This document shows positions 18,631 through 32,489 of a DNA stretch of 64,000 bases, piece by piece. The position numbers and the translations under genes are program-made. This stretch comes from Acidobacteriota bacterium (GTDB taxonomy: Bacteria > Acidobacteriota > Vicinamibacteria > Marinacidobacterales > Marinacidobacteraceae): the NCBI GenBank assembly GCA_022826195.1, contig JAJDVI010000012.1, positions 71,583 to 135,582 of the forward strand. Reading direction: 5' to 3'. The first letter of the stretch is position 1; each line of letters opens with the position of its first letter. The notes beneath the pieces are model-generated. The model searched no databases and was not told the DNA's origin. It was given only the letters and a program-made list of their open reading frames with translations.

Positions 18631-18637
18631 GGTCACC

Positions 18638-19145: not shown

Positions 19146-19802
19146 CTACCGCAGGATCCGGCGTTCCGCGGCGAGGGCGTCCAGTTCCCGGTCCAGCTCT
19201 TCCGCTTCCGCCCGGAGGCGGTTCGTGTCGAGGGGACTCAGGAACCGATTGGGGTTGCGCGGCGCGGTGGGAAGGCCGCTTGACCCGATGGCGGTCAGCG
19301 AGGCCTCGATGTCGAGCAGGCGCTCCCGGATCTCGGCTTCCCGTTCCGCGATCTCGCGGAGCCGGGCTTCGATGGCTTCCTGAACGTCATCCGCGCTGGG
19401 TTCGGCCGTGTCCTCGCCGGGGTCGCCGGGCGGAAGGTCTTCGCCGGTGACGGGAGGGTCGCGGAGTGGGTCCGTCTCGAGCGGAGCCGGCGGTTGATCC
19501 GGACTCGTCGAGCGCGTACCGGAGAGATCGGCGTCGGTGAAGCGCGGCGCCGGGCCGTGTCGCTCCCGGCTGGCCGCGATGCGGGCGCGGTTCCGCCGCG
19601 CGGCCTCGGCAAGCGACGGCTGGCTCTCCTGAACGGACGGTGAGGGAGCGGCGCTCCCGGCCGTCGCGATCAGCAGCCCGAGGGCGAAAACCGCGGCGGG
19701 CAGTTCAAGCGTTGACAGGATTGCCGAAGCGGTCGCGCAGGACGTACGGCGGCAGGCGATATTCCTCGCGGAACATCTGGGTACGGACAGAACCCGTGAC
19801 AT
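19146..19802 (-). CDS. Hypothetical secreted Pro/Glu/Arg-rich coiled-coil protein
   Basis: internal signal-like LELPAAVFALGLLIATAGSAAP; true start probably internal (~19715), since the 5' end of the ORF overlaps the upstream gene; no recognised domain. Confidence 0.35.
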   Translation of the reverse strand: MSRVLSVPRCSARNIACRRTSCATASAILSTLELPAAVFALGLLIATAGSAAPSPSVQESQPSLAEAARRNRARIAASRERHGPAPRFTDADLSGTRSTSPDQPPAPLETDPLRDPPVTGEDLPPGDPGEDTAEPSADDVQEAIEARLREIAEREAEIRERLLDIEASLTAIGSSGLPTAPRNPNRFLSPLDTNRLRAEAEELDRELDALAAERRILR

Positions 19803-20928
19803 GGGACGCGATGTCTCTCCCGGTGAGCAGATAGACGACAGTGGGGCAAAGGTCGCGCCGCATCACCTGCTCGGGGAACACCGCGCCCGCCCGGAAGTCG
19901 GGGCCGACCCCGAGCGTCCAGACGTTGTGGGCGTAGTAGTTCCCCTGCGAGTGATGGAGCTGTCCGTACACGTTGACCTCGTCGTCGCGGCCGCATTCGG
20001 GCCGCAGCAGGATCGAGGTGGTGTCACGCAGGTACGGATCGTTCTGGATGAAATCGTGGAGGTTGCCGATGAGCTCGTCGGTGGCCGCGATATGCCGCCG
20101 GTACTGCTCGTAGTCGGTGTCGTAGTCCCAGAAACCGGCGTCGGCGTGGGCATCGTCGAGCGCCAGCATCTGGATGGTGATCAGTTTCGGCCGGAAGTCC
20201 CGGAGCAGGTGTTTCGCGATCTCGAAGCACTGCCCGTCGCCGAGCGGGACCTCCCGGTCCACCAGCGAGGTCTTGGTGGACGCCGGCACGTCGGTCCGCC
20301 GGGAGACGGCGTCGGCGAGCCAGTCCTCGAGGTCCTTCCGGGTCTGCCGGGTGTGGCCGAGTCCCGGTTCGATGTTGGCCTTCACGAGAGCCGCGGCCGA
20401 CTGCTCCTGATCGTCGTGGAACAGCTTGTTCATGGTCAGCGAATTCGCGCCGAACTGGAGCCCGCCGTCCGGGTGGGCGCTCCAGTGCTTCCGGTCGAAG
20501 ACCCACGACCGGTAGTAGCTGACTCCCTGGAGCATCCAGTAGTCGTTCACCGAACCCCCGAGTTCCTTGCGGACCGTCTCGGTCCACGTCGGATAGAGCG
20601 GATGCTCCGAGACCGTTTCCCGGCCGGTCAGCATCTCGGTGTACATGTAGCCGTGGAGGTTCGCGGTCTCGCCGAAGTCCTCGGTGAACACGCTCCCGGC
20701 GTCCATCATCCGGGCCATGTGCGGCGCGTGCGCCCGGTCCTCGACGGTGTCCTTCTTCCGGCAGCCGTTGCCGTAGAGGATGACCACCAGGTGCTTCGTC
20801 TTCAGGCTCGCGTCGGGAACGACGCCCGCGCGCTCGGGCGCGGCGGCCAGCAGCCGGTTCGCGCTTCCACCCAGGCCGAGGGCCGCCGCGCCGGCGGCGC
20901 CGAGAAAGCGACGGCGGTTCATGCTCAT
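19705..20928 (-). CDS. Tat-exported hypothetical protein
   Basis: twin-arginine signal MSMNRRRFLGAAGAAALGLGGSA; 407 aa; ATG overlaps upstream gene stop (ATGA). Confidence 0.55.
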   Translation of the reverse strand: MSMNRRRFLGAAGAAALGLGGSANRLLAAAPERAGVVPDASLKTKHLVVILYGNGCRKKDTVEDRAHAPHMARMMDAGSVFTEDFGETANLHGYMYTEMLTGRETVSEHPLYPTWTETVRKELGGSVNDYWMLQGVSYYRSWVFDRKHWSAHPDGGLQFGANSLTMNKLFHDDQEQSAAALVKANIEPGLGHTRQTRKDLEDWLADAVSRRTDVPASTKTSLVDREVPLGDGQCFEIAKHLLRDFRPKLITIQMLALDDAHADAGFWDYDTDYEQYRRHIAATDELIGNLHDFIQNDPYLRDTTSILLRPECGRDDEVNVYGQLHHSQGNYYAHNVWTLGVGPDFRAGAVFPEQVMRRDLCPTVVYLLTGRDIASHVTGSVRTQMFREEYRLPPYVLRDRFGNPVNA

Positions 20929-22349
20929 TGCGGTTTCGGGGCGGCGGCCGGTTCCGTCTTCGCTTCGGGCAGGAACTCCACCTCCAGGCCGCGGACCTCG
21001 TCGTCGCGGACCGGATTCAGGTTCAGGTAGTTCTGCGCCCGGTCGGAAATGTTCACCCGCGACACCGAGTAGGTGCCGCGCTCCTGCCACGTCTCGATCT
21101 TCAGGACGCCGCGGAAGACGTTGGGCTGCGGGACCAGCGAGGGCCGGTTCAGCGGCGGGTTCCGGCTCTCGAGCTCCACCCGGACCAGGTCGGCGCCGGA
21201 CGGGCTCTGGAAAGAGACGTAGACCTTGTCCACGCCGCTCAGGTTGTCCTCCACGAGGGCGGCCACCGGGATGGACTCGCTGGCGAGCGCCTCGCGCTGC
21301 GGCAACTCGACGGCGAGCAGCACCGGCGGCTCGTCGTCGCGCTTGTCCGGGTTCTCCGTGATCAGCACGGTCCGGTTCGCGAGCACCGGCGACGTCGCGG
21401 CGAAAACGAGGGCGCTGTTCCGCGCCGCGTCATAGAGCTCGACCTTCTGGACCGTCCAGCGGCCGCCCTCGTACCACTCGGGAATGGAGAAAGCCCCGAG
21501 AAAGCGGCCCGGGTTCCGGGCGTCGCCGATCAGGTCCGCCCGCACCGCGCGTCTTCCCGAGGGACTCGCGAACACCGCCCGCGCCTGGGTCGGGCCCGCC
21601 AGGTTGTCCTCGGCGAAGGCCTCCACCCGGATGGTCTCGCCGACGCTCGCCTCGGGGGTGAGGATCTCGAGCGAGCGGAGCGTGGGCGGGGTCACGTCCG
21701 CCTCCGGATTCTCCGAGACCACGAAATAGGCCGGGCTGCCGTCCGGCGCCCGCATCACCGGGTTGAACTCGGTGGAGTACGCCTTCTTGTGCCCGTGCTC
21801 GTCGGTGATCATCGTCGAGCCCACGTTGTAGCGGCCGCCCGGGTGGTAGCGGTCCACCTTGCCGCGGCCGAGATAGAGGCGCTTGTCCTTCTCGTGGGGC
21901 TTGAAGTTCACGTAGATGACCGACGCCCGGCCGTACTCCTGGCTCCAGAACTCCGCGACGAACCGCCGGCCTTTCTCGAAGGCCGGCTCCACCCTGGCGA
22001 TCGCCCGCACGGTGTCGCCGGGGTCCACTGCCAGATCGATGACCCGGAACTCGGTCAGCGCGGTCGAACGGTGTTCCCCGCTCAGCTCGCGCTGGGCCGG
22101 CTGGGCGCCGCGCCGGCGGTACTGGAAGACCTCGGGGATGTAGTCCTCGTCGGCGACCCCGAGCTGGCCGGTCACGTCGGCGCTCGCCGGTTCGGTCCCC
22201 TGGGTTACGTCGTCGACGATCGCGAAGGGGTACGCGGCGGCCTTCGCATCCTCATCCTTCTCGCGCGCGCGCCGGGTTTCGGGCGGCTGGGCGAGCGCGG
22301 CCGACGCGCCGAACAGCGCGGCGAGCACCACAAAACGCACTGACATCAA
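20925..22349 (-). CDS. Secreted hypothetical protein with two tandem ~110-aa repeated domains
   Basis: Sec signal MSVRFVVLAALFGASAALA; internal duplication (PPTLRSLEILTPEASVGETIRVEAFAEDNLAGP... / PPVLLAVELPQREALASESIPVAALVEDNLSGV...). Confidence 0.55.
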   Translation of the reverse strand: MMSVRFVVLAALFGASAALAQPPETRRAREKDEDAKAAAYPFAIVDDVTQGTEPASADVTGQLGVADEDYIPEVFQYRRRGAQPAQRELSGEHRSTALTEFRVIDLAVDPGDTVRAIARVEPAFEKGRRFVAEFWSQEYGRASVIYVNFKPHEKDKRLYLGRGKVDRYHPGGRYNVGSTMITDEHGHKKAYSTEFNPVMRAPDGSPAYFVVSENPEADVTPPTLRSLEILTPEASVGETIRVEAFAEDNLAGPTQARAVFASPSGRRAVRADLIGDARNPGRFLGAFSIPEWYEGGRWTVQKVELYDAARNSALVFAATSPVLANRTVLITENPDKRDDEPPVLLAVELPQREALASESIPVAALVEDNLSGVDKVYVSFQSPSGADLVRVELESRNPPLNRPSLVPQPNVFRGVLKIETWQERGTYSVSRVNISDRAQNYLNLNPVRDDEVRGLEVEFLPEAKTEPAAAPKPQ

Positions 22350-22445
22350 AGGGAAACCGAGCCGATCAGCCAATATATCATCCGCCCCCCGGCGCCCGGC
22401 CCGCCACCGCGGCGGGCTGATTTCCCCGGCGCCCGGTTGAACGAC

Positions 22446-23753
22446 ATGCCTCTTTTCGCCCGGCGTTTCGGCCACATGGGGACCGAGAACGCCTTCAAGA
22501 TCGGAGAAGACATGGCCCGCGCCCGGGCGCGCGGCGTGGATGTCATTCCCTTCACCATCGGCGAGCCCGACTTCGACAGCGCGCCGCACATCAACGAGGC
22601 GGGGATCGCGGCGATCCGCGCCGGAGACACCCACTACACCGATCCCGCCGGGATCGCGCCGCTCCGGGAAGCGCTCGCCGCCTACGTGTCCCGGACGCGC
22701 GGCATCGAGGTGGCCGCGGACCGGATCATCATCCTTCCGGGGGCGAAGCCCGCGATCGGCTACACGATGATGGCCTACGTGGATCCCGGCGACGAGGTGA
22801 TCTACCCGAGTCCCGGGTTCCCGATCTACGAGTCGTGGGTCACCTATCTCGGGGGCGTGCCGAAACCGCTCGTGCTGCGGGAGGAGCGGGGCTTCTCCTT
22901 CACGGTGGAGGACCTGGACCGGCTGCTCACCGAGCGGACGAAGGTCCTGATGCTCTGTTCGCCGTCGAACCCGACCGGCGGGGTGCTCCCGAAGAGCCTG
23001 CTCGAGGAGGTCGCCGCGCTCGTGAAGGAGCGGGGCCGCCCGGACATCCGCGTCTACTCCGACGAGATTTACGAACACATCACCTTCGACGGTTTCGAGC
23101 ACACCTCGATGGCTTCCCTGCCGGGCATGGACCGGCACACGATCATCGCGAGCGGACACTCCAAGGGGTACGCGATGACCGGCTGGAGGCTCGGCTGGTG
23201 CGTGCTTCCCACGGCGGAAGAAGCCCTGCGGTTCAAGCAGATCAACATCAACACGGTGAGCTGCGTTCCCCCCTTCATCCAGCAGGCCGCCCGCGAGGCG
23301 CTGGAGAACCCGAAGACCTGGGAGGTGGTGGGTTCGATGGTGGCCGAGTTCAAGCGGCGGCGTGACTACGTGGTGCCGGCGCTGAACGCCATTCCCGGAG
23401 TCAGTTGCGCGAATCCGCTGGGCGCCTTCTACGTCTTCCCGAACATCACGGGCGTCTGCGAATCCCTCGGCGCCACCGCGCACTTCGAGTCGCTGCCGGA
23501 TTCCCTGAAGGCGAGCACCAGCCCGGCGACCCTGGTTTCCCGGTTCCTCCTCTACTACCACGGGGTCGCCCTGGTGGACCGCCGCAGCTTCGGCGTGATC
23601 GGCAGCGAGGGACAGAACTTCCTGCGACTCTCCTATGCGGCGGACATGGACTCGATCCGCGAGGGGATCCGGCGGATCGCCGCCGGGGTCGCCGACCACG
23701 ACGGGTTCGCCCGCTTCCTGCAGGACCAGACTGCGTTAGGACTCGCCGCATGA
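22446..23753 (+). CDS. PLP-dependent aminotransferase, class I/II (aspartate aminotransferase-like)
   Basis: fold-type I signatures incl. SGHSKGYAMTGWRLGW (PLP-lysine), NPTG. Confidence 0.8.
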   Translation: MPLFARRFGHMGTENAFKIGEDMARARARGVDVIPFTIGEPDFDSAPHINEAGIAAIRAGDTHYTDPAGIAPLREALAAYVSRTRGIEVAADRIIILPGAKPAIGYTMMAYVDPGDEVIYPSPGFPIYESWVTYLGGVPKPLVLREERGFSFTVEDLDRLLTERTKVLMLCSPSNPTGGVLPKSLLEEVAALVKERGRPDIRVYSDEIYEHITFDGFEHTSMASLPGMDRHTIIASGHSKGYAMTGWRLGWCVLPTAEEALRFKQININTVSCVPPFIQQAAREALENPKTWEVVGSMVAEFKRRRDYVVPALNAIPGVSCANPLGAFYVFPNITGVCESLGATAHFESLPDSLKASTSPATLVSRFLLYYHGVALVDRRSFGVIGSEGQNFLRLSYAADMDSIREGIRRIAAGVADHDGFARFLQDQTALGLAA

Positions 23754-24772
23754 GCCGCATCTTCGTTACCCGCCCTATTCCAGCCGCCGGCCTCGCCATC
23801 CTGCGCACCGCGGCCGAGGTGGAGGTGGCGCCCACCGCCGACGGCGACTCGACTCCCCGGGAGCAGGTGCTTGCCGGCGCCCGGAGCGCCGACGTGCACG
23901 TCTCGCTGCTGACCGAGGCGGTGGACCGGGAGCTCATGGAGTCCGCTCCGCGGTTGCTCGGGGTGGCCAACTACGCGGTCGGCTTCAACAACGTGGACGT
24001 GGCGACCGCGACGGAGCTCGGCTTGCCGATCACCAACACCCCCGGCGTCCTGACCGACACGACCGCGGATCTGGCGTGGACGCTGCTGATGTCCGTCGCG
24101 CGCCGGGTGGTTCCGGCGGACGCCTACATGCGGGGCGGCCGGTACCGGATCTGGGGGCCGTCGCTGATGCTGGGCGCCGACGTCAGCCCGGGCGGTGACG
24201 AGCGCCGGAAGGTGCTGGGAGTCGTCGGCTTCGGGCGGATCGGGCAGGCGATGCACAGGCGCGCCCAGGGGTTCGACATGGACGTGCTGGCCTTCGATCC
24301 CCCCATGAAGGACATCATCGAAGCCCGCTCCGACGTGGAATACGCCGAGTTCGACGACCTGCTCGCCCGCAGCGATTTCGTGACGATCCACACCGACCTC
24401 AATCCCTCGACGCATCATCTCTTCGACGCGGCGGTCTTCGCGCGAATGAAGGAGACGGCGATCCTGATCAACACCGCGCGCGGGCCGGTCGTGGACGAGG
24501 CGGCGCTAGTGGACGCGCTCAAGTCGGGTCAGATCGGCGGCGCGGGGCTCGACGTGTTCGAGCACGAGCCGGCGTTCCACCCGGGGCTGGCCGACTGCGA
24601 CAACGTGGTGATGCTTCCCCACATCGCGAGCGGCAGCGTGGCCACCCGGGACCGCATGGCCACCATGTGCGCCGAGAACGCGGTGGCCCACCTGAACCGG
24701 CAGCGCGCGCCGAACTGCGTAAACCCGGAGGTCTACGACACGGAGGCGTACCGGCGGCGAACATCCCGGTAG
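23750..24772 (+). CDS. D-isomer-specific 2-hydroxyacid dehydrogenase (glyoxylate/hydroxypyruvate reductase-like)
   Basis: NAD-binding GVVGFGRIGQA, catalytic region ILINTARGPVVDE...MLPHIAS; ATG overlaps aminotransferase stop. Confidence 0.8.
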   Translation: MSRIFVTRPIPAAGLAILRTAAEVEVAPTADGDSTPREQVLAGARSADVHVSLLTEAVDRELMESAPRLLGVANYAVGFNNVDVATATELGLPITNTPGVLTDTTADLAWTLLMSVARRVVPADAYMRGGRYRIWGPSLMLGADVSPGGDERRKVLGVVGFGRIGQAMHRRAQGFDMDVLAFDPPMKDIIEARSDVEYAEFDDLLARSDFVTIHTDLNPSTHHLFDAAVFARMKETAILINTARGPVVDEAALVDALKSGQIGGAGLDVFEHEPAFHPGLADCDNVVMLPHIASGSVATRDRMATMCAENAVAHLNRQRAPNCVNPEVYDTEAYRRRTSR

Positions 24773-24842
24773 GCGAGTGTGTGAACCCGATTGACGCCCG
24801 GCATCCGGGATCGATCGGCGCGGCTCCGGCCGTCGGGCCGCG

Positions 24843-27005
24843 ATGAGCCAGACCTTCGTCATCGTCGCCGTCTGCGTCTATCTGGCGGGACTCCTGTTTC
24901 TGGGGGCGGTTGCCTCCACGCGGATCCGCAACGCCACCGACTTCGTGGTCGCCGGCCGCCGGCTCGGGCTGGGGCTCTGCACGTTCACGCTCTTTGCGAC
25001 CTGGTTCGGGGGCGGCACGCTGATCGGGGCGGCGGGAGCTTCCTACGCCGGCGGGCTGAACGCGGTGGTGGCCGATCCCTTCGGCGCCGCGCTCTGCCTG
25101 CTGCTCGCCGGCGCGTTCTACGTGCGGCTGCTCCGCCGGCTGCGGCTCCTGACGGTGCCGGACTTCTTCCGGCGCCGGTTCGGCCGGTCGGCCGAGATCC
25201 TCTCCGCGCTCTCGATCCTTCCGGCCTACATCGGCTGGGTGGGATCGCAGTTGCTCGCGGTGGGAACGGTGCTCTCCGCGATGGCCGGTCTCCCGTTCGT
25301 CGCCAGCATTCTCATCGCCGCCGCCATCGTCCTCGTCTACACGGTTCTCGGTGGCATGTGGGGCGTGACCCTCACCGATTTCTTCCAGGCGCTGGTCCTC
25401 ATCGCGGCGATCTGCGTGCTGCTGCCGATCGTCCTCGGAGCGGCGGGCGGGGTTTCCGCCGTGCTCGACGCCCTGCCGGAGGGCCGGACCCGGTTCCTGC
25501 CGACCGGCGGCCTCCTCGAATGGCTCTTCTTCGTGCAGGCCTGGCTGTTGATCGGCCTCGGGAACCTGCCCGGTCAGGACCTCATGCAACGGGCCCTCAG
25601 TTCCAAGAGCGAACGGGTCGCGCAGTGGTCCGCCTACTTCGGCGGTTCGCTCTACCTGGTGGTCGGCCTGATCCCGGTGGCGCTCGGGATGATCGGTTCG
25701 GTGCTGATGCCCGGCCTTCAGAACCCGGAAGAGATCGTGCCCCGTCTGGCCATGGAGTACCTGCCGCCGGCCGGGCTGGCCCTCTTCCTGGGAGCGCTCT
25801 TCTCGGCGCTCATGAGTTCCGCGGACAGCGGGCTGCTGGCCCCGGCGAGCGTCTTCGGGCAGAACATCGTCCGCAACCTGGCTCCCGACCTGAAGCCGAA
25901 GGAGGTGCTGGCTGCGGTCCGGGTCGGCGTCGTCATCTTCTGCGGACTGGCGCTCGCGGTGGCGCTGTGGTTCCAGAGCGTGTACACGCTGATGGTCGAA
26001 TCGTGGACCGTGATGATGGTCGGCCTCTTCGGCCCGCTCACGCTCGGTATGTACTGGAAGCGGACGAACACGCCGGGCTGCGTGAGCGGCATCGCGGCCG
26101 GGCTGGCGGTGTGGCTGGGGCTCGTCGGGTTGGAACTCGTCTCCGGCGCGGCCTCCCCCGAAGAGGTCCGGCAACTGCCGAACGCGCTCATCGCCACCCC
26201 GGTGTCCCTGCTGGTGACGGTTGCCGTTTCCCTGCTGACCGCGAAGAGCCACCCGCCGCGGGCGCTCACCGATCCCTCGGGAGCGCCGATCGAGGCGAAG
26301 GGCCGGCTCGGGACGCTGGGACTCCGCCCTCCGGCGTCCGCCTACGGACCCCCGGTTCCGATGGGGTCCGCGTCTCGCTGGCGGATCGTGCCGACGGCGG
26401 CGCATCACGCGGAGGCGCTCGCCGAACTCACGCGGATCGTCTTCCCCACGCTCGATCCTTCGGAGTGTTTCGTGGCGGACCACTACCGGAAACACGTCGA
26501 GATCTTTCCCGAGGGTCAGTTCGTCGCCCTGACGGGCGCGGACAGGCCGGTCGCGTCGACCACCACCCTGCGGCTGAACCTCGATCTCAGCCATCCGCAA
26601 CACCGCTTCCCCGAGTTCCTGGGAGGGCTCTACCTCGCCGCGCACAACCCCGCAGGCGAGTGGCTCTACGGCGCCGATCTCGGAGTCCACCCGGACTGGA
26701 GGCGGCAGGGAATCGCCCGGGCGCTCTACGCCGCCCGGCAGGCGACCGTCCGACGCCTGGGCCTGCGCGGCCAGCTCACCGTCGGCATGCTGAACGGCTA
26801 CGGGGCGGTCGCGGGCCGGATGACCGCCGAGGACTACTACGAGCGGCTGGTGGCGGGGGAGATCAGGGATCCGACGGTCTCCGCGCAGATGCGGATCGGA
26901 TTCCGCCCGGGGGGGCTCATTCCCAATTACGTCCAGGACCCCCGCTGCGGCGGCTACGGCGTCCTGCTGACCCTTCCCGCGGACCAGCAGGTTTCTCCCC
27001 GGTAA
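24843..27005 (+). CDS. Fusion protein: sodium:solute symporter (SSS family) N-terminal domain + C-terminal GNAT N-acetyltransferase domain
   Basis: ~480 aa of 12-13 TM helices typical of SSS family, then soluble ~230 aa with GNAT motif HPDWRRQGIARALYAARQ. Confidence 0.7.
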   Translation: MSQTFVIVAVCVYLAGLLFLGAVASTRIRNATDFVVAGRRLGLGLCTFTLFATWFGGGTLIGAAGASYAGGLNAVVADPFGAALCLLLAGAFYVRLLRRLRLLTVPDFFRRRFGRSAEILSALSILPAYIGWVGSQLLAVGTVLSAMAGLPFVASILIAAAIVLVYTVLGGMWGVTLTDFFQALVLIAAICVLLPIVLGAAGGVSAVLDALPEGRTRFLPTGGLLEWLFFVQAWLLIGLGNLPGQDLMQRALSSKSERVAQWSAYFGGSLYLVVGLIPVALGMIGSVLMPGLQNPEEIVPRLAMEYLPPAGLALFLGALFSALMSSADSGLLAPASVFGQNIVRNLAPDLKPKEVLAAVRVGVVIFCGLALAVALWFQSVYTLMVESWTVMMVGLFGPLTLGMYWKRTNTPGCVSGIAAGLAVWLGLVGLELVSGAASPEEVRQLPNALIATPVSLLVTVAVSLLTAKSHPPRALTDPSGAPIEAKGRLGTLGLRPPASAYGPPVPMGSASRWRIVPTAAHHAEALAELTRIVFPTLDPSECFVADHYRKHVEIFPEGQFVALTGADRPVASTTTLRLNLDLSHPQHRFPEFLGGLYLAAHNPAGEWLYGADLGVHPDWRRQGIARALYAARQATVRRLGLRGQLTVGMLNGYGAVAGRMTAEDYYERLVAGEIRDPTVSAQMRIGFRPGGLIPNYVQDPRCGGYGVLLTLPADQQVSPR

Positions 27006-27029
27006 CGGACCGCCCGCGCGAGCTCCCGT

Positions 27030-27071
27030 TTGACATCGGGATCAGAGTAATCTATAAAACAGACTACTCTG
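27030..27071 (+). promoter_or_regulatory. Sigma70-like promoter (TTGACA-17-TATAAA) with overlapping 7-bp inverted repeat CAGAGTA..TACTCTG
   Basis: TTGACA 27030-35, 17-nt spacer, TATAAA 27053-58; IR arms 27044-50 and 27065-71; RBS GGGAGAGG before ATG 27088; AT-rich island in GC-rich DNA. Confidence 0.45.
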
Positions 27072-27087
27072 AAGGGAGAGGTCAATC

Positions 27088-27657
27088 ATGGACACATCCA
27101 CCGCACGCAGCGACTTGGCGCTGGTCGACCGGATTCTCCGGTCGGCGGACCGCTCGCTCAACGTCGCGCCGCTCATCTTTCTCACCTGGGGGCTGTTCGC
27201 CGCGATCGTCAACGGAGTAGCGCAGGCTCGGGCCGTCGGCCTTCCGGTACCGTCCGACGGGTCCTTCCAGCTGCCGCTGATGCTGCTCGCGATCGGCATC
27301 AGCGCGTGGGCCGCGCACCGCCATGACACCGGACGCGAAACACAGATCGACAGCCAGGCGGGAATCACGTTCGGGGTGGCGTTCGGAGTTCTGTTGCTGC
27401 TGAACCTCACGGCCCAGCACCGGGTAATTCCCGGCGACGGGATGTCGCTGTTCTGGGCCGGGGGGATGAGCATCGCGCTACTGGTCGTCGGTCTGCAGGC
27501 GAGCCGGCCGCTGCTCATTGGCGGCATCGCGCTGCTCGCCGCCGCGGTGGTCGCCAGTTTCGTTCCGGCCTGGTTCCATGGCACGCTGGTCCTCGGCTGG
27601 GTGGCGGGGCTTGTGGTTCCCGCCATCGTGATCTGGGCGCGACGCGGCCGTGGATGA
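27088..27657 (+). CDS. Hypothetical integral membrane protein (4-5 TM)
   Basis: hydrophobic segments; co-oriented and overlapping with downstream wHTH gene. Confidence 0.45.
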   Translation: MDTSTARSDLALVDRILRSADRSLNVAPLIFLTWGLFAAIVNGVAQARAVGLPVPSDGSFQLPLMLLAIGISAWAAHRHDTGRETQIDSQAGITFGVAFGVLLLLNLTAQHRVIPGDGMSLFWAGGMSIALLVVGLQASRPLLIGGIALLAAAVVASFVPAWFHGTLVLGWVAGLVVPAIVIWARRGRG

Positions 27658-27928
27658 ACTCCTGCTGTCCCGGATCCGCCTGGCGGTCATCGCGGAGCTG
27701 GTTGCGGTGGAGTGGGCCACCTTCACCGACCTCCAGAAGTCGGTTCAGGCCACCAACGGCAACCTGAGCGCTCACCTCGGCAAGCTGATCGCCGGCGGCT
27801 ACGTCGTCGAACGCAAACGCTTCGTGCGCCGCCGCCCGCAGACCCGCTATCGCCTGACGGATGCCGGCCGCGCCGCCCTGCTGCAACACGTCGAGCAACT
27901 GCAGGCGCTGGTCGCTCCGGAGCGGTGA
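27650..27928 (+). CDS. Small winged-helix transcriptional regulator (MarR/PadR-like)
   Basis: LSRIRLAVIAELV...FTDLQKSVQATNGNLSAHLGKLIAGGYVVERKRF pattern of wHTH; GTG start overlapping upstream stop. Confidence 0.5.
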   Translation: MDELLLSRIRLAVIAELVAVEWATFTDLQKSVQATNGNLSAHLGKLIAGGYVVERKRFVRRRPQTRYRLTDAGRAALLQHVEQLQALVAPER

Positions 27929-28074
27929 GGCGGCGCCGTGCCGTCTGTAAGATTCGCGCCCCGCGAACGTAGCGAAGACAGGTCCTCTTCCGGCCTTCCG
28001 CGTGGAGTCCCGGGCTGTCGCACCGTGCCCGGAACCTTTCCCTCCCAAGCCTCGTAGGCTCCTGATTCAAGAAC

Positions 28075-29310
28075 ATGAATCCCTCAAACCCCGCTGACCG
28101 GCTCGCCGAACTCAAGATCGGCGAGGAGCAGCGCGGCTCGCGTCCGTTCGCGCTCGTCACCGCGATCATCGGTGGACTGCTGGTGATCGGGGGCGGAGTC
28201 TCGGCAGTCTTCCTGCTGGGTTCGGAGCCGGAGGTCTTCGCGGTCCGGACGGCGCGGGTGCGCTCGATCTCGGTGGACGCCGGGACCACGGTGCTGAACG
28301 CGAGCGGTTACGTCACGGCGCGGCGCCAGGCCACCGTTTCGTCCAAGACCGCGGGGCAGATCACCGAGATCGCCATCGAAGAGGGCATGGAGGTGACCGC
28401 GGGCCAGGTGCTCGCCCGTCTCGACTCCTCCAACCTGGGGCGGACCCTCCGCCTCGCGGAGGCGCAGACCGCGGCGGCCGGAAAAGCGGTCCTCGAGGTG
28501 GAGGCCCAGCTCGCCGAAGCCCGCCTGCGCCAGGAGCGGACCCGGCGCCTCGTGGAGCAGCAGGTCGCCGGACAGGCCGACCTCGACCAGGTGAACGGCG
28601 AGGTCGCCACCCTCGAGGCGCGCATCGAGCGCCAGCGCGAGGACATTCGCGTCTCGGAGCGGCAGGTGGAGGTCATCCGCCAGCAGATCGAGGACATGGT
28701 GATCCGGGCGCCGTTCGACGGCGTCATCACCGCCAAGAACGCCCAGCCCGGCGAAATGATGTCCCCCATCGCCGGCGGCGCCGGGTTCACCCGGACCGGA
28801 ATCGGGACGATCGTGGACATGACCTCGCTGGAGATCGAAGTGGACGTCAACGAGGCATACATCAACCGGGTCTCTCCGGAGCAGCCGGTGGACGCCGTCC
28901 TCGACTCCTACGACGACTGGACGATCCCGGCCCGGGTGATCGCGATCATCCCGACCGCCGACCGGGACCGCGCCACGGTGCGGGTGCGGATCGGTTTCGA
29001 ACAGCTCGACCCCCGGATCCTGCCGGACATGGGCGTCAAGGTGAGTTTCCGGTCCGCGGAGGCGGAGCCCGAAGCGGCTCCCGAGGGTCTGCTCGTGGAC
29101 GCCGCGGCGGTGTTCCCGGACACCGGCCGGGACCTCGTCTATCTGGTCCGCGACGGCCGGGTCCAGCGCCGGGCGGTACGGCTCGGGGACCGGCGCGGGT
29201 CCGATGTGTTCGTCCTCTCCGGACTGGTGGAGGGTGACCGGGTAGTCGTGGAGGGCCTCGAGGGACTCGAGGACGGCGCCGAAGTCGAGGAAGCGACCGC
29301 GGCGCCCTAG
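28075..29310 (+). CDS. HlyD-family periplasmic adaptor (membrane fusion protein) of ABC/efflux transporter
   Basis: N-terminal TM anchor, long coiled-coil, beta-barrel/lipoyl regions typical of MacA-like MFPs. Confidence 0.8.
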   Translation: MNPSNPADRLAELKIGEEQRGSRPFALVTAIIGGLLVIGGGVSAVFLLGSEPEVFAVRTARVRSISVDAGTTVLNASGYVTARRQATVSSKTAGQITEIAIEEGMEVTAGQVLARLDSSNLGRTLRLAEAQTAAAGKAVLEVEAQLAEARLRQERTRRLVEQQVAGQADLDQVNGEVATLEARIERQREDIRVSERQVEVIRQQIEDMVIRAPFDGVITAKNAQPGEMMSPIAGGAGFTRTGIGTIVDMTSLEIEVDVNEAYINRVSPEQPVDAVLDSYDDWTIPARVIAIIPTADRDRATVRVRIGFEQLDPRILPDMGVKVSFRSAEAEPEAAPEGLLVDAAAVFPDTGRDLVYLVRDGRVQRRAVRLGDRRGSDVFVLSGLVEGDRVVVEGLEGLEDGAEVEEATAAP

Positions 29311-29342
29311 CAGCCGGTGAACGGAGTCACCTGGAGAGTCGA

Positions 29343-30122
29343 ATGAGCGAGACGAGTTTTTCCGACGCGGCGGCCGGCAACGGCGCCGCTACTGAGGCCA
29401 TGGTGGACGTGCGAAGCGTCCGCCGGACCTTCCAGCGGGGCCGCACGCCGGTTCCGGTGCTGAAGGACCTCACGCTCCGCATGGAGAAGGGGGAGTTCCT
29501 GGCGCTGATGGGACCTTCGGGCTCCGGGAAGTCGACGCTGCTCAACCTGATCGCCGGGCTCGACCGGCCGACCGGCGGCGAGGTGATCGTGGGCGGCTCG
29601 GAGATCCACCGCCTTTCCGAGCGGAAGCTCGCCGGCTGGCGGGCCCGCAACATCGGCTTCGTCTTCCAGTTCTCGAACCTGCTCGGAGCGTTGAGCGCCG
29701 AGCGGAACGTGGCGGTGCCGCTGCTGCTGACCTCGTTCTCGGCCCGCGAGCGCCGGCGCCGGGTGGACATCGCGCTCGAGATCGTGGGGCTGTCGGATCG
29801 TGGAAAACACCGCCCCCGGGAGCTCTCGGGCGGCGAACAGCAGCGGGTCGGCATCGCCCGCGCGCTGGTGAACGATCCGATGCTCCTCGTCTGCGACGAG
29901 CCGACCGGCGACCTCGACCGGGCGACGAGCGGCGAGATCCTGGATCTGCTGGTCGCTCTCAACCGGGACCACGGGAAGACCATCCTGATGGTCACCCACG
30001 ACCCGGTGGCGGCCGAACGGGCATCGCGCACCCTGCACCTCGAGGACGGCCGGCTCGCGGACTGCGGGCACGACGGAACGGTCGTGGTGCCGGTCCACGA
30101 ACCGGCGGGAGCGGCGGTGTGA
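29343..30122 (+). CDS. ABC transporter ATP-binding protein (MacB/LolD-like)
   Basis: Walker A GPSGSGKST, signature LSGGEQQRV, Walker B LLVCDEPTGDLD. Confidence 0.85.
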   Translation: MSETSFSDAAAGNGAATEAMVDVRSVRRTFQRGRTPVPVLKDLTLRMEKGEFLALMGPSGSGKSTLLNLIAGLDRPTGGEVIVGGSEIHRLSERKLAGWRARNIGFVFQFSNLLGALSAERNVAVPLLLTSFSARERRRRVDIALEIVGLSDRGKHRPRELSGGEQQRVGIARALVNDPMLLVCDEPTGDLDRATSGEILDLLVALNRDHGKTILMVTHDPVAAERASRTLHLEDGRLADCGHDGTVVVPVHEPAGAAV

Positions 30123-31279
30123 GTTCCTTCACCCTGATCAGCGCGGCGCTCCGCCGCAAGAAGACGCGGACCTTCCTGACCTTCTCGTCGGTGGTGTTCG
30201 CGTTCCTGATCTTCGGGGTCCTCTCGATGCTCCAGACCGCGTTCTCCATGGGCGCGGAGATCGCCAACGAGGACCGCCTGGTGGTGCGCCACCGGGTTTC
30301 CCTCTTCCAGCTCCTGCCGCAGTCCTACGAGGCCGACATGGAGGAGATCCCCGGCGTCGTGGACGCGATGCACATGACGTGGTTCGGCGGCGTCTACCAG
30401 GACCCGTCCAACTTCTTCATGCAGTCCCCGGTGGAACCGGCGGAGTACCTCGACATGTATCCGGAGGTTTCCGTTCCGGAGGAGGCGAAGCTGCGCTGGA
30501 TCGAGACCCGGAACGGAGCGATCGCGGGCCGGGCGCTCGTCGAACGCCTGGGTTGGGAGGTCGGCGACCGGATCCCCATCCAGCCGACGATCTGGCGACA
30601 GGACGGCCGTGGCGACGACGCCTGGGAGTTCGAGCTGGTCGGCGTCTACGACGCGGACGTGGAGGGCTTCGACCAGACCCAGTTCCTCTTCCGCTACGAC
30701 TTCTTCGACGAGGCCCGTTCCTTCGGGCGCGGACAGGTGGGCTGGTTCATGGTGCGGATCGCCGACCCGGACCGGGCTCCCGAGATCGCCGCCGCGATCG
30801 ACGACACCTTCCGGAACTCCGCCGCCGAGACCAAGAGTGAATCCGAAGGGGCGTTCGCGGCCGGGTTCGCCAACCAGGTCGGGAACCTGGGACTGATCGT
30901 GACCTCGATCCTGGCGGCGGTCTTCTTCACCATCCTGCTGGTCGCGGGCAACACCATGGCGCAGTCAGTGCGCGAACGGATCGGCGAGATCGGGTTGCTC
31001 AAGGCGCTCGGCTTCACCTCCAGCCGGGTGCAGCGGCTGGTGCTCATGGAGTCGGTGACCCTGGTGACGACCGCGGGATTCCTGGGTATGGTCCTGGCCG
31101 TGGGCTTGGAGCGCGTGCTCCGCCCGGCCCTGGCCGCCTACTTCCCGGGCCTCTTCCTGCGGCCCGAGGATCTGCTGCTGGGGCTCGGCCTGGCGGTCGT
31201 GACCGGCCTGGTGGTCGGCATCTTTCCCGCGCGGCGGGCGATGCGCCTCGAGACGGCGCTCGCCCTGCGGCGGCTGTAG
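30119..31279 (+). CDS. ABC transporter permease, FtsX/MacB-type (1 of 2)
   Basis: N-terminal TM, large periplasmic domain, C-terminal 3 TM FtsX domain. Confidence 0.75.
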   Translation: MSSFTLISAALRRKKTRTFLTFSSVVFAFLIFGVLSMLQTAFSMGAEIANEDRLVVRHRVSLFQLLPQSYEADMEEIPGVVDAMHMTWFGGVYQDPSNFFMQSPVEPAEYLDMYPEVSVPEEAKLRWIETRNGAIAGRALVERLGWEVGDRIPIQPTIWRQDGRGDDAWEFELVGVYDADVEGFDQTQFLFRYDFFDEARSFGRGQVGWFMVRIADPDRAPEIAAAIDDTFRNSAAETKSESEGAFAAGFANQVGNLGLIVTSILAAVFFTILLVAGNTMAQSVRERIGEIGLLKALGFTSSRVQRLVLMESVTLVTTAGFLGMVLAVGLERVLRPALAAYFPGLFLRPEDLLLGLGLAVVTGLVVGIFPARRAMRLETALALRRL

Positions 31280-31292
31280 GGGAGTCGGCACG

Positions 31293-32489
31293 ATGCGGCT
31301 TGGTTCCTTCCTTCGCCAGTGCCAGGCGGTGACCCGCTACAATCTGGAGACGATCTGGGAGCGGCGCGCCGTTTCGGTGGTCGCGATCTTCGGCATTGCC
31401 GGAGTCGTCGGCGTGATGGTGGCCGTCCTGTCGATGGCGGCCGGTTTCCGTTCGGTGGTCACCGGGCAGGCCCGCGACGACGTGGCGGTGGTGCTCCGGA
31501 GCGGCTCCACCGGCGAGTCGGACAGCATCCTGAACCATCAGGACATCCAGGTCCTCTGGGAGGCGCCGGGAGTGGCGCGCGGCCCCGACGGCCCGCTCGT
31601 CTCGCCGGAGCTGTTCGTGATCATCGACCGCAAGAAGATCGGCGCCGGCACCGACGCCAACGTCCCGCTCCGGGGCGTCGAGACGGCCGGTTTCGCGCTC
31701 AGGGAGCAGTTCGAGATCGTCGAGGGCCGGAACTTCGAACCGGGCCGGAACGAGGTGATCGTGGGCGACGGGGCGGCCGGCGCCTTCGAGGGCCTGTTGG
31801 TCGGAGACCGGATCGACGTGGGCCGCACCTCCTGGGAGGTGGTCGGGCGCTTCACTGCGGGCGGCGGGGTTGCCGAATCGGAGATCTGGACCGACACCCG
31901 CGTGCTCCAGGCGATGTACCAGCGGGGGAACTCCTGGAACGTGGCCCTGGTGCGGCTCCGGGACGCCGAGGCGTTCGAGGGCTTCGAGGCGGCGCTCACC
32001 GACGATCCGCGGGTCAGCCTCGGCGCCCGCCGGCAGACGGCCTACATGGCGGCGCAGTCGGAGCCCATCGAGGTGTTCATCTCGGTGGTCGGCTGGATCA
32101 TCGTGGTCATGATGTCGGCGGGCGCGGTGTTCGCGGCGCTCAACACCATGTACGCGGCGGTGTCCTCCCGCTCGCGCGAGATCGCGACCCTGCGCGCGCT
32201 GGGTTTCTCGCGGTTGCCGGTGGTCGTCTCGGTGATGATCGAGTCGCTCGTCTTCGGGCTCATCGGCGCGGCGGCGGGCGGCGCGGCGTCGTGGTTCCTG
32301 TTCGACGGGTTCCGGGCCGCGACGATCAACTGGGCCTCCTTCAGCCAGGTGGCCTTCGCCTTCGAGGTGACGCCGGAACTGCTCGTCCAGGGGACCACCC
32401 TGGCCCTCGTGATCGGGACGATCGGCGGTTTCCTGCCCGCGGTGGGCGCCGCCCGCCGCAGCGTCGTGGGGGCACTGAGGGAGCAGTAG
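31293..32489 (+). CDS. ABC transporter permease, FtsX/MacB-type (2 of 2)
   Basis: same architecture as preceding gene; ends ...GGFLPAVGAARRSVVGALREQ. Confidence 0.75.
   Translation: MRLGSFLRQCQAVTRYNLETIWERRAVSVVAIFGIAGVVGVMVAVLSMAAGFRSVVTGQARDDVAVVLRSGSTGESDSILNHQDIQVLWEAPGVARGPDGPLVSPELFVIIDRKKIGAGTDANVPLRGVETAGFALREQFEIVEGRNFEPGRNEVIVGDGAAGAFEGLLVGDRIDVGRTSWEVVGRFTAGGGVAESEIWTDTRVLQAMYQRGNSWNVALVRLRDAEAFEGFEAALTDDPRVSLGARRQTAYMAAQSEPIEVFISVVGWIIVVMMSAGAVFAALNTMYAAVSSRSREIATLRALGFSRLPVVVSVMIESLVFGLIGAAAGGAASWFLFDGFRAATINWASFSQVAFAFEVTPELLVQGTTLALVIGTIGGFLPAVGAARRSVVGALREQ

What the first reader, a model, noticed from the sequence alone, without database searches (positions are those of the whole stretch)
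24843..27005. Sodium:solute symporter fused to a GNAT acetyltransferase domain, downstream of an aminotransferase and 2-hydroxyacid dehydrogenase
A single 720-aa ORF joins a complete SSS-family permease (~480 aa, 12-13 TM) to a soluble cytoplasmic GNAT-fold domain carrying the acetyl-CoA-binding motif RRQGIARALY. Such fusions suggest vectorial coupling of uptake to N-acetylation of an amino-acid- or polyamine-like solute. The upstream co-oriented, overlapping aminotransferase and D-2-hydroxyacid dehydrogenase genes could form one pathway with it. The substrate cannot be predicted from sequence alone.
Basis: partly seen in the sequence, partly recalled or inferred. Interest (0 to 1): 0.5.

Follow-up and report, generated by a model that had tools for sequence, protein, structure and literature searches.

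The report
Stop-loss SNP joins transporter and GNAT
The 720-residue "transporter-acetyltransferase fusion" is really in the sequence, but it is two normally separate neighbouring genes joined in this one strain by a single base change that destroyed the first gene's stop codon, so it is not an evolved fusion protein.

Summary
ORF 24843-27005 (+) is intact.

In 22 orthologous loci the two parts are separate genes, with a 12-15 nt spacer or a 1-nt overlap. Four conspecific contigs (99.5-99.7% identical, no indels) read GCC TAG GGACCCCCGGTTCCG ATG at the junction. The window reads TAC. Two of those contigs differ from the window across the whole 2163-nt ORF only at base 26345. The fusion is therefore one private G-to-C change in a spacer that happens to be in frame. 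An independent re-assembly (Logan, SRR16351684) carries the same base, so a real allele is more likely than an error.

The functional link between the two genes is supported. Symporter-GNAT adjacency is conserved in the Vicinamibacteria clade. In Bacteroidota an unrelated NhaC-type transporter sits directly upstream of the homologous GNAT gene.

The symporter is closest to choline transporters (sfCHT, human CHT1) but keeps only 2 of 6 choline-cage aromatics. The GNAT is closest in fold to CurA/GphF/SxtA GNAT-like decarboxylases but appears to lack their His-Thr dyad. The substrate is unknown; an amine or basic amino-acid-like solute is my inference. Interest is modest.

The parts
22446..23753 (+). 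Class I/II (aspartate-aminotransferase-like) PLP aminotransferase, 435 aa. It is the first gene of the conserved four-gene block.
   Evidence: Pfam Aminotran_1_2 on the identical product in L089. NCBIfam best hits score 250-262 bits, all below the equivalog cut-offs. Synteny is shown.
23750..24772 (+). D-2-hydroxyacid dehydrogenase, glyoxylate-reductase-like, 340 aa. It overlaps the aminotransferase gene by 4 nt.
   Evidence: Pfam 2-Hacid_dh and 2-Hacid_dh_C. NCBIfam glyoxylate reductase scores 332 bits, below the 455 cut-off.
24843..27005 (+). The fused 720-codon ORF of the finding (symporter + former spacer + GNAT).
   Evidence: The exact 720-aa product is also on record on 3 contigs. The Logan re-assembly L089 is 100% identical to window 21843-30005.
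24843..26342 (+). Sodium:solute symporter part (residues 1-500): 13 TM helices, CHT-like branch of the SSS family. This is the complete gene product in all relatives.
   Evidence: Pfam SSF E 5e-47 and TIGR00813 191 bits. PDB phmmer gives sfCHT 9rws E 6e-55 and human CHT1 E 2e-39. AF2 pLDDT is 89.8 and the Foldseek top hit is CHT1 with TM 0.80. The identical 500-aa protein P0241 is encoded with a stop on 11 contigs.
26343..26345 (+). TAC (Tyr501), which is the former TAG stop codon of the symporter gene. Base 26345 (C) is the private stop-loss substitution.
   Evidence: L090, L091, L093 and L094 carry TAG here in an otherwise identical junction. It is the only difference from L091 and L093 in the whole ORF. 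TAG is also present in L001-L004, L009, L010 and L012.
26346..26360 (+). The 15-nt former intergenic spacer, now translated as Gly-Pro-Pro-Val-Pro (residues 502-506). It is in frame and has no stop, which is why loss of the TAG gives a fusion.
   Evidence: Spacer length varies among orthologues: 12, 13 or 14 nt, or a 1-nt overlap. Residues 500-506 have pLDDT below 50.
26361..27005 (+). GNAT-fold part (residues 507-720). It is a stand-alone 211-217-aa gene in relatives that starts at this same ATG. Motif A is R620-x-x-G623-x-A625 in ORF numbering.
   Evidence: All 120 top homologues are 157-261 aa. A gene is called from the homologous ATG in L090, L091 and L093. AF2 pLDDT is 92.1. Foldseek gives GphF, SxtA and CurA at TM 0.76-0.83.
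27088..27928 (+). Two small downstream genes: a 189-aa membrane protein without family (27088-27657) and a 92-aa HTH_34/ArsR-like regulator (27650-27928). They are variable neighbours and not part of the core pair.
   Evidence: They are present in L001 and L089-L093 but absent in L002-L004 and L007, where the MacA-like gene follows the GNAT directly.

Best explanation
Shown: the window carries a conserved two-gene cassette. The first gene is a CHT-like Na+/solute symporter (500 aa). The second is a 214-aa GNAT-fold, CoA-dependent enzyme. In the ancestral and general state they are separate genes, spaced closely enough (12-15 nt, or overlapping) for translational coupling. In this species the spacer is 15 nt and in frame. 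In this one strain a single G-to-C transversion at 26345 changed the symporter's TAG stop to TAC (Tyr). Translation therefore runs through the spacer (GPPVP) into the GNAT gene and gives a 720-residue chimera.

Inferred: the SNP is a real, very recent allele rather than an error. By homology with CHT1 and sfCHT, the symporter's C-terminal tail is cytoplasmic. About 40 coil residues separate TM13 from the GNAT core. The chimera would therefore tether a correctly located, probably still functional GNAT domain to the inner face of the permease.

Inferred for the cassette: the symporter imports a small amine or basic-amino-acid-like solute. The GNAT enzyme then acylates or otherwise processes it with a CoA thioester in the cytoplasm. 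The upstream aminotransferase and 2-hydroxyacid dehydrogenase may act in the same route. The fusion itself adds proximity but is not an evolved coupling device.
For: Junction evidence:
- TAG plus a 12-14 nt spacer occurs in L001-L004, L009, L010 and L012.
- An identical 15-nt spacer with TAG occurs in the conspecific contigs L090, L091, L093 and L094, which are 99.5-99.7% identical with no indels.
- Base 26345 is the only difference from L091 and L093 over 2163 nt.
- None of 22 orthologous loci is fused.
- All top-120 symporter homologues are at most 577 aa, and all top-120 GNAT homologues are at most 261 aa.

Evidence that the allele is real:
- The exact 720-aa product is on 3 contigs from NCBI, ENA and Logan.
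- The Logan re-assembly is 100% identical over 8163 nt.
- The window differs from its conspecifics by 14-37 substitutions in 4.5-7.5 kb, mostly synonymous. A further SNP is therefore unremarkable.

Topology:
- The model has 13 helices and a coil tail from 466 to 506.
- CHT1 has its N-terminus outside and its C-terminus inside (PMC11589582). The sfCHT C-terminus is cytoplasmic (PMC13220886).

Functional link:
- Symporter-GNAT adjacency is kept down to 53% symporter identity (L043).
- In 14 Bacteroidota loci an unrelated NhaC-family transporter lies directly upstream of the homologous GNAT. In L063 the two genes overlap by 8 nt.
- In most of the other genomes the GNAT is followed by, or fused to, a GABA-aminotransferase-like class III aminotransferase. 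An Amidohydro_3 and often an aldehyde dehydrogenase follow.
Against: - No reads were available, so the allele frequency at 26345 in the source sample is unknown.
- The three contigs carrying the fusion may all derive from one sequencing run. They would then show agreement between assemblers, not independent biological replication.
- Nothing shows that the chimera is expressed, stable or active.
- A GNAT enzyme that needs to oligomerise or needs a free N-terminus could be impaired by tethering.
- The substrate inference rests only on gene neighbourhood and weak similarities. The closest sequence hit to a small-molecule amine acetyltransferase is E 0.01-0.02.
- In this clade the GNAT lacks the class III aminotransferase and amidohydrolase partners seen elsewhere, so its role may have diverged.
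Confidence: 0.72

Rival explanations
1. Base 26345 is a sequencing or consensus error. The organism really has TAG and two separate genes, so the fusion does not exist in vivo.
For: The fusion depends on one base. Every conspecific and related contig has G there. Public assemblies of this clade do contain artefactual fusions and truncations. Examples are the 775-aa aminotransferase-dehydrogenase 'fusion' in the indel-rich contig L092, the 577-aa frameshifted symporter P0007, and the split genes in the 4x-coverage contig L008.
Against: Those artefacts are indel errors in long-read assemblies, whereas the window has no indels relative to four conspecific contigs. The same base appears in the Logan re-assembly and in NCBI and ENA records. 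Real substitutions between these strains occur at about 0.3-0.5% of sites. My own estimate is that this is far above the consensus error rate of a short-read assembly.
Confidence: 0.13
2. This is the first reader's view: the fusion is an evolved, selected architecture that couples uptake vectorially to N-acetylation of the imported solute.
For: The cytoplasmic placement of the GNAT domain is compatible with this view. The two genes are functionally linked by conserved adjacency. In other lineages the same GNAT family is genuinely fused to a partner enzyme: a class III aminotransferase in at least 12 loci and a CN_hydrolase in Kofleriaceae.
Against: None of 22 orthologous loci is fused. Spacer lengths of 12, 13, 14 and 15 nt show no conservation of reading-frame register. 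The allele differs from conspecifics by one base and has no linker adaptation. The linker is simply the translated spacer and is predicted to be disordered.
Confidence: 0.05
3. The allele is real but harmful or inactivating. Tethering disables the GNAT enzyme, or the bulky C-terminal addition impairs insertion or turnover of the permease. On this view it is a transient, mildly deleterious polymorphism on its way to loss or pseudogenisation.
For: It is a private variant seen in one sample series only. Stop codons are normally under purifying selection. With no evident Shine-Dalgarno sequence before the ATG at 26361, free GNAT would no longer be made by termination-reinitiation (inference).
Against: Neither half has accumulated any further change: both are 100% identical at the protein level to L091 and L093. 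This has little power at such low divergence. The roughly 40-residue coil between TM13 and the GNAT core and the correct cytoplasmic side make tolerance plausible.
Confidence: 0.2

Closest known systems
High-affinity Na+/choline transporters of the SLC5A7 type (human CHT1; bacterial sfCHT, PDB 9RWS/9RWT)
   Same: These are the best sequence matches among solved structures (E 6e-55 and 2e-39, far ahead of SiaT, NIS and vSGLT) and the best fold match (TM 0.80). The protein has 13 helices with the C-terminus inside. By alignment the Na+-site residues are kept: sfCHT A97/T98/Q226 correspond to A52/T53/Q182. The QR..S gate motif is also kept.
   Different: The choline cage is not kept. Human W62/Y67/Y91/W141/W254/W406 correspond to W54/T59/A82/W132/G244/M384. 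Each of these six residues is essential in CHT1 (PMC11589582). W54 and W132 are invariant, M384 nearly invariant and G244 the consensus residue in the 40-sequence alignment; A82 is not a conserved position. The substitutions therefore look like a family trait that implies a different, probably bulkier substrate.
GNAT-like decarboxylase domains of polyketide-synthase loading modules (CurA GNAT_L 2REE/2REF, GphF 6MFC, SxtA 7UCI)
   Same: These are the closest solved folds (TM 0.76-0.83, E 4e-12 to 9e-11). They are also the only profile hits that span nearly the whole domain, including the C-terminal extension with the D-P-x-x motif.
   Different: The window's GNAT is stand-alone or transporter-linked, not part of a PKS. 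In the HMMER alignments the catalytic His (CurA H389) aligns with an invariant Gln (Q176 in GNAT numbering). The Thr/Ser (CurA T355) aligns with invariant G142, with T140 two residues away (dyad per PMC3701320). These alignments are of low significance, so this is indicative only.
Acyl-protection catabolic routes for diamino compounds, such as the arginine succinyltransferase pathway or catabolism of acetylated diamines (from my own knowledge, not tested)
   Same: The wider GNAT family sits in clusters of GNAT + class III (GABA-AT-like) aminotransferase + amidohydrolase + aldehyde dehydrogenase, often with a transporter. This is the same enzyme logic: acylate, transaminate, oxidise, deacylate.
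   Different: There is no sequence membership in AstA, SpeG or EctA families (no NCBIfam hit). In the window's clade the partners are a class I aminotransferase and a 2-hydroxyacid dehydrogenase instead.
Membrane-domain/soluble-domain chimeras such as SSS-domain sensor kinases (CbrA-type) or MprF (flippase + GNAT-fold synthase) (from my own knowledge, not tested)
   Same: In each, a permease-like membrane domain is joined to a cytoplasmic catalytic or signalling domain at its C-terminus.
   Different: Those are conserved, ancient architectures. This one is a single-SNP allele in one strain.

Membership tests
Sodium:solute symporter family (Pfam PF00474 / TIGR00813) | Profile score above the curated cut-off | tested here: met
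   PF00474 scores 161 bits (cut-off 22.8) and TIGR00813 scores 191 bits (cut-off 184).
Sodium:solute symporter family (Pfam PF00474 / TIGR00813) | LeuT-fold permease with about 13 TM helices | tested here: met
   The AF2 model has pLDDT 89.8. Foldseek gives TM 0.72-0.82 to CHT1, SGLT1/2, SiaT and NIS.
CHT / SLC5A7-type choline transporter | Closest sequence and fold relative among characterised SSS proteins | tested here: met
   sfCHT E 6e-55 and hCHT1 E 2e-39 against 3e-21 or weaker for the others. The Foldseek top hits are 9bim and 8j74.
CHT / SLC5A7-type choline transporter | Aromatic cage for the quaternary ammonium group (hCHT1 W62, Y67, Y91, W141, W254, W406; sfCHT W99, Y126, W176, W298, W445) | tested here: not met
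   Only W54 and W132 are retained. T59, A82, G244 and M384 replace the rest (alignments; residue lists; family conservation).
CHT / SLC5A7-type choline transporter | Na+-dependent choline uptake | not testable with these tools
   This needs transport assays.
GNAT superfamily | Profile match, GNAT fold and motif A (Q/R-x-x-G-x-G/A) | tested here: met
   Acetyltransf_1 scores 24.1 bits (cut-off 20.7). AF2 pLDDT is 92.1. There are 429 PDB GNAT matches with E <= 0.001. R114-x-x-G117-x-A119 is invariant or nearly invariant.
GNAT superfamily | Acyl-CoA-dependent acyl transfer to an amine | not testable with these tools
   No biochemical data exist. No NCBIfam equivalog matches.
GNAT-like decarboxylases (CurA/GphF/SxtA, malonyl-CoA decarboxylase type) | His-Thr/Ser catalytic dyad (CurA H389/T355) | tested here: not met
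   In the HMMER alignments the His position is the invariant Q176 and the Thr/Ser position is G142 (dyad from PMC3701320). The alignment E-values are 0.002-0.8, so residue equivalence is provisional.
GNAT-like decarboxylases (CurA/GphF/SxtA, malonyl-CoA decarboxylase type) | Embedded in a PKS loading module next to a carrier protein | tested here: not met
   The gene is stand-alone in all 120 listed homologues. No PKS domain appears in any neighbourhood inspected.
Conserved multidomain (Rosetta-stone) fusion protein | The same domain fusion present in orthologues of other strains, species or lineages | tested here: not met
   None of 22 distinct orthologous loci is fused, including four conspecific contigs that carry TAG at the junction.
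Diamine/polyamine N-acetyltransferases (SpeG/SSAT/thialysine acetyltransferase) | Significant sequence membership | tested here: inconclusive
   The only hit is a marginal local one to thialysine N-epsilon-acetyltransferase 8yv7 (E 0.011-0.024) around motif A.

The most novel reading that the evidence does not exclude
The TAC allele is a genuine gene fusion caught at birth in a wild population. A single stop-loss SNP in an in-frame 15-nt spacer yields a functional permease-acyltransferase chimera. That chimera co-exists with the two-gene form in sister samples. It would offer a natural matched pair for testing whether tethering a cytoplasmic modifying enzyme to a secondary transporter changes flux (substrate channelling). 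Beneath it lies an uncharacterised, widely distributed GNAT family with a CurA-like fold. Two unrelated transporter families are translationally coupled to this family, which points to an unknown import-and-acylate route for an amine-type solute.
Probability: 0.3. Interest if true: 0.5.

Novelty: new variant of a known kind. Interest (0 to 1): 0.3.

Why it matters
As an architecture the fusion matters little, because it is one base away from the ordinary two-gene state and is confined to one strain. Three points are of some use.

First, it is a clean warning for genome scans. A single-genome 'fusion protein' can be a private stop-loss allele or an error, and a comparison with conspecific contigs settles the question quickly.

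Second, if the allele is real, it documents the minimal step by which adjacent, translationally coupled genes become one protein.

Third, the comparative work shows that this GNAT family is consistently wired to an importer. It has no characterised member, a fold nearest to PKS GNAT-like decarboxylases, and many invariant His/Cys/Asp residues. The importer is a CHT-like SSS in this clade and an NhaC-type transporter in Bacteroidota. In most other lineages the GNAT is also linked to a class III aminotransferase, amidohydrolase and aldehyde dehydrogenase. This marks an unassigned, widespread catabolic module that deserves biochemical attention.

Tried and rejected
1. My own error: searches used window:26360-.... 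That is one base out of frame, because the GNAT ATG is at 26361. Their 'no hit' results are void. The PDB search and the alignment were repeated in frame.
2. Two scans of JGI metagenome contigs looked for the junction, one with the exact spacer and TAS, one with the conserved upstream 25 nt and TAB. Both found nothing, so they gave no independent population evidence.
3. A combined alignment of the fused protein with separate symporter and GNAT homologues misplaced the GNAT rows. No full-length model with a usable alignment could be made. The orientation of the GNAT active site relative to the transporter exit was therefore not assessed. With about 40 coil residues between the domains it would not be predictable anyway.
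4. The afdb50 fold library was unavailable.
5. Choline import followed by O-acetylation (a bacterial 'CHT + acetyltransferase') was considered because CHT is the best hit. I rejected it because 4 of 6 cage aromatics are replaced.
6. A malonyl-CoA-type decarboxylase role was considered because of the fold. I down-weighted it because the His-Thr dyad is not aligned.
7. Programmed TAG read-through in the two-gene strains was considered because the spacer is in frame in this species and in L012. I rejected it because the register is not conserved: spacers of 13 and 14 nt and a 1-nt overlap occur elsewhere.
8. Literature searches for SSS-GNAT fusions or for the GNAT/aminotransferase/CN-hydrolase cluster returned nothing relevant. 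One search failed on syntax.
9. The promoter and terminator scan of 22200-28200 was uninformative.
10. The long antisense ORF 24519-26690 (723 aa, minus strand) has an Arg/Pro/Gly-rich translation and was not searched against any family; I take it to be a by-product of about 70% G+C.
Full report
**1. The observation**

Window 24843-27005 (+) is a single uninterrupted ORF of 720 codons. The region is about 70% G+C, so long spurious ORFs abound on both strands, including an antisense one at 24519-26690. The plus-strand ORF, however, has strong family support.

- Pfam SSF covers residues 34-420 (E 5e-47), and TIGR00813 scores 191 bits against a cut-off of 184.
- The C-terminal part passes Pfam Acetyltransf_1 only narrowly: 24.1 bits against 20.7, at residues 593-649.
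- Structure prediction removes the doubt. Residues 507-720, modelled with 42 homologues, give pLDDT 92.1 and pTM 0.88. Foldseek finds 429 PDB matches with E <= 0.001; all those listed are GNAT-fold proteins.
- The string RRQGIARALY is at ORF residues 620-629 and fits GNAT motif A. In the family alignment R114 and A119 are nearly invariant and G117 is invariant (GNAT numbering).
- The symporter part, modelled with 39 homologues, gives pLDDT 89.8. It has 13 membrane helices, the last at 447-465, then a coil tail. Residues 500-506 fall below pLDDT 50.
- The upstream aminotransferase (22446-23753) and D-2-hydroxyacid dehydrogenase (23750-24772) are co-oriented and overlap by 4 nt.

**2. The fusion is not shared by any relative**

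The closest symporter homologues (92-68% identity) are about 500 aa and cover only 69% of the query. None of the 120 listed carries a GNAT domain. All 120 listed GNAT homologues (92-57% identity) are 157-261 aa.

In the syntenic contigs L001-L004, the symporter ends with TAG. A separate GNAT gene starts 13-14 nt later in a different frame. In L007 the two genes overlap by 1 nt.

A scan of one genome per species with a GNAT profile returned 80 loci. In every locus where the symporter lies upstream, tblastn of both halves shows two genes.

The nearest species-level genome is L012 (OZ220713.1, a Vicinamibacteria MAG). It is about 95% identical in DNA, and tblastn reports 100% identity over the 500 symporter residues. 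It has TAG plus a 12-nt in-frame spacer.

**3. The decisive comparison**

The exact 500-aa symporter sequence, ending at a stop, is on record on 11 contigs. Four of these are conspecific with the window at 99.5-99.7% identity with no indels: L090, L091 and L094 from ENA KELL22-1 samples, and L093 from Logan SRR16351690.

| Sequence | Junction |
|---|---|
| L090, L091, L093, L094 | GCC TAG GGA CCC CCG GTT CCG ATG |
| Window | GCC TAC GGA CCC CCG GTT CCG ATG |

A site-by-site comparison shows that L091 and L093 differ from the window at one position only across the entire 2163-nt ORF. That position is 26345, G against C.

The fusion is therefore a private stop-loss transversion. It gives a fused ORF only because the 15-nt spacer of this species is a multiple of three and contains no stop. 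Spacer length varies between 12 and 15 nt among relatives, so the in-frame register is accidental.

**4. Real allele or error?**

The exact 720-aa protein is on record on three contigs from NCBI, ENA and Logan. The Logan contig is an independent re-assembly of run SRR16351684 and is 100% identical to the window over 8163 nt.

The window has no indels relative to its conspecifics. It differs from them by 14-37 mostly synonymous substitutions in clustered, mosaic patterns. It is therefore a distinct strain in which one more SNP is unremarkable.

The artefactual fusions and truncations I saw in this clade are all indel-type errors in long-read assemblies:
- L092, a 775-aa aminotransferase-dehydrogenase 'fusion' in a contig with 31 gap openings;
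- P0007, a 577-aa frameshifted symporter;
- L008, a 4x-coverage contig with split genes.

I put the probability that the allele is real at roughly 0.85. The three contigs may all stem from one run, and I could not inspect reads. The public protein collection clusters the fused protein under a 500-aa representative, so lists of cluster representatives can hide such fusions. For that reason I rely on the DNA-level survey of loci.

**5. What the two parts are**

*Symporter.* By sequence it is far closer to the bacterial Na+/choline transporter sfCHT (9RWS, E 6e-55) and human CHT1 (E 2e-39) than to SiaT, NIS, vSGLT or SMVT. CHT1 is also the top fold match, with TM 0.80.

CHT1 has 13 helices with its N-terminus outside and its C-terminus inside (PMC11589582). 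The sfCHT C-terminus is also cytoplasmic (PMC13220886). Positive-residue-rich loops in the window protein agree with this topology. The GNAT domain of the chimera would therefore be cytoplasmic.

The choline cage is not conserved:

| Reference | Cage residues | Window residues |
|---|---|---|
| Human CHT1 | W62/Y67/Y91/W141/W254/W406 | W54/T59/A82/W132/G244/M384 |
| sfCHT | W99/Y126/W176/W298/W445 | W54/A82/W132/G244/M384 |

The mapping comes and the residue lists. Each single alanine substitution of these residues abolishes CHT1 transport. W54 and W132 are invariant, M384 nearly invariant and G244 the consensus residue in the 40-sequence alignment. The Na+-site residues do align: A52, T53 and Q182.

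I conclude that this is a Na+-coupled member of the CHT-like branch with a different, probably larger, substrate. It is not a choline transporter.

*GNAT.* There is no NCBIfam match. The best solved folds are the GNAT-like decarboxylases GphF, SxtA and CurA (TM 0.76-0.83). They share the C-terminal extension with the D-P-x-x motif.

The decarboxylase His-Thr dyad is described in PMC3701320. In the HMMER alignments it falls on invariant Q176 and G142. These alignments are of low significance, so this is indicative only. The family has many invariant residues of its own: H41, Y42, H45, H81, H95, W101, D170, Q176, D193 and C196. It looks like an uncharacterised GNAT subfamily.

**6. Context and likely function**

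Within the Vicinamibacteria / 'Ca. Marinacidobacterium' clade, the order aminotransferase, dehydrogenase, symporter, GNAT is conserved. In L017 the first two genes lie inverted downstream. In L022 and L043 only the symporter-GNAT pair is seen. The pair is therefore the core.

Outside the clade the homologous GNAT has other partners.
- In about 60 of the 80 genome loci it is immediately followed by a GABA-aminotransferase-like class III aminotransferase. In at least 12 loci the two form a single GNAT-aminotransferase ORF.
- An Amidohydro_3 usually follows, and often an aldehyde dehydrogenase.
- In Kofleriaceae a GNAT-CN_hydrolase paralogue and an FAD oxidase are added.
- In 14 Bacteroidota loci an NhaC-family transporter sits directly upstream of the GNAT. 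In Flavihumibacter profundi L063 it overlaps the GNAT gene by 8 nt.

Two unrelated importer families are thus tightly coupled to the same enzyme family. This is good evidence that the enzyme acts on an imported solute.

The recurrent aminotransferase, aldehyde dehydrogenase and amidohydrolase partners suggest an acylate-transaminate-oxidise-deacylate route for a compound with more than one amino group. This is my inference from general knowledge of the arginine succinyltransferase pathway and acetyl-diamine pathways. It was not tested.

In the window's clade the partners are instead an aspartate-aminotransferase-like enzyme and a glyoxylate-reductase-like dehydrogenase. A YfcC-like 'basic amino acid antiporter' homologue and an ureidoglycolate-lyase-like gene lie further upstream. 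The substrate remains unknown.

**7. Mechanism to which I commit**

*Shown.* This is a two-gene cassette joined by one SNP. The C-terminal domain is a GNAT fold. The permease is CHT-like without the choline cage. Transporter-GNAT coupling is conserved.

*Inferred.*
- The allele is real.
- The chimera places the GNAT on the cytoplasmic face, about 40 coil residues after TM13, and is probably tolerated.
- The cassette imports an amine or basic-amino-acid-like solute that the GNAT then modifies with an acyl-CoA.
- In the fused strain, free GNAT would be scarce. The ribosome no longer terminates 15 nt upstream, and no Shine-Dalgarno sequence precedes the ATG at 26361.

**8. Novelty and verdict**

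The families are known, and gene fusion by stop loss is a known process. An SSS-GNAT chimera did not turn up in the literature I could search, but here it is a single-strain allele and not an architecture. The finding is real in the sequence, its evolutionary reading was over-interpreted, and its interest is modest (0.3). The more interesting by-product is the uncharacterised, transporter-coupled GNAT family.

Source names such as 'SB0661_bin_8', 'ROBB21' and 'KELL22' suggest sponge-microbiome studies. That rests on my memory and was not verified (one search was uninformative).

Noticed in passing
L038, L039, L041, L045, L056, L064-L066, L068, L072, L073, L023 (about 3900-6010 in each locus): In Terriglobia and other Acidobacteriota, Kofleriaceae and Sphingobacteriales, the homologous GNAT is fused in one ORF of about 680-760 codons to a GABA-aminotransferase-like class III aminotransferase. 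This looks like a genuine, recurrent fusion, unlike the one in the window. The stop-to-stop ORFs were found for all twelve loci, but Pfam domains were confirmed only for L038, L023, L056 and L073. No function is assigned.
   Followed up: partly
L063 2551-3915 and 13 other Bacteroidota loci (L067, L069, L071, L073, L074, L079, L081, L083-L085, L087): An NhaC-family (PF03553) transporter gene lies directly upstream of the homologous GNAT gene, overlapping it by 8 nt in Flavihumibacter profundi. The cluster there is aminotransferase / aldehyde dehydrogenase / transporter / GNAT / aminotransferase / Amidohydro_3.
   Followed up: partly
L005 4427-5992 (Kofleriaceae) and L021, L023, L026, L027, L029, L030, L032, L033, L042, L044, L052: A 521-aa protein directly upstream of the GNAT gene is itself a paralogous GNAT domain (about 32% identity) fused to a CN_hydrolase domain. 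Class III aminotransferase, aldehyde dehydrogenase and FAD oxidase (DAO) genes follow.
   Followed up: partly
L092 603-2930; P0007; L008 2149-5940: These are artefact-like gene fusions and splits in indel-rich long-read assemblies of the same clade. They comprise a 775-aa aminotransferase-dehydrogenase 'fusion', a 577-aa frameshifted symporter, and split aminotransferase and truncated symporter genes in a 4x-coverage contig.
   Followed up: partly
window 19705-20928 (-) and about 20925-22350 (-): Two divergently oriented genes have no Pfam family on record. One (about 407 aa) has a twin-arginine-like signal (MSMNRRRFLGAAGAAALGL). The other (about 473-489 aa) has a signal peptide. Both are conserved in synteny next to the aminotransferase gene in all close relatives.
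   Followed up: no
window 21870-28248 compared with L090, L091, L093 and L094: SNPs between conspecific strains are clustered in blocks: the aminotransferase 3' part (23453-23636), the GNAT 3' part (26840-26945, L090 only) and the MacA 5' part (28067-28248, L091 and L093). The block combinations differ between contigs, which suggests recombination among strains.
   Followed up: no
window 27088-27928: A 189-aa membrane protein without family and an overlapping 92-aa HTH_34/ArsR-like regulator sit between the GNAT gene and the MacA-like gene. They are present in the window, L001 and L089-L093 but absent in L002-L004 and L007, so this is a variable insertion.
   Followed up: partly
window 28075-32489: A MacAB-type efflux set lies downstream and is conserved in all close relatives. 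It comprises a periplasmic adaptor (411 aa), an ABC ATPase (259 aa) and two FtsX/MacB_PCD permeases (386 and 398 aa).
   Followed up: no
window 17167-19129: A YfcC/DcuC-family transporter ('putative basic amino acid antiporter', 215 bits, below cut-off) is followed by a weak ureidoglycolate-lyase-like gene. Both are conserved in L001.
   Followed up: no
L024 4001-5614: In this 'Ca. Marinacidobacterium' genome the GNAT reading frame stays open for about 330 further codons that have no Pfam domain. This could be a lost stop, or simply an open frame in high-GC DNA.
   Followed up: no
protein collection, cluster of P0001: The 90%-identity cluster represented by the 500-aa P0001 also contains stand-alone GNAT proteins (P0245, P0254). 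They appear to be bridged into it by the 720-aa fused sequence. Cluster representatives can therefore both hide fusions and merge unrelated families.
   Followed up: partly
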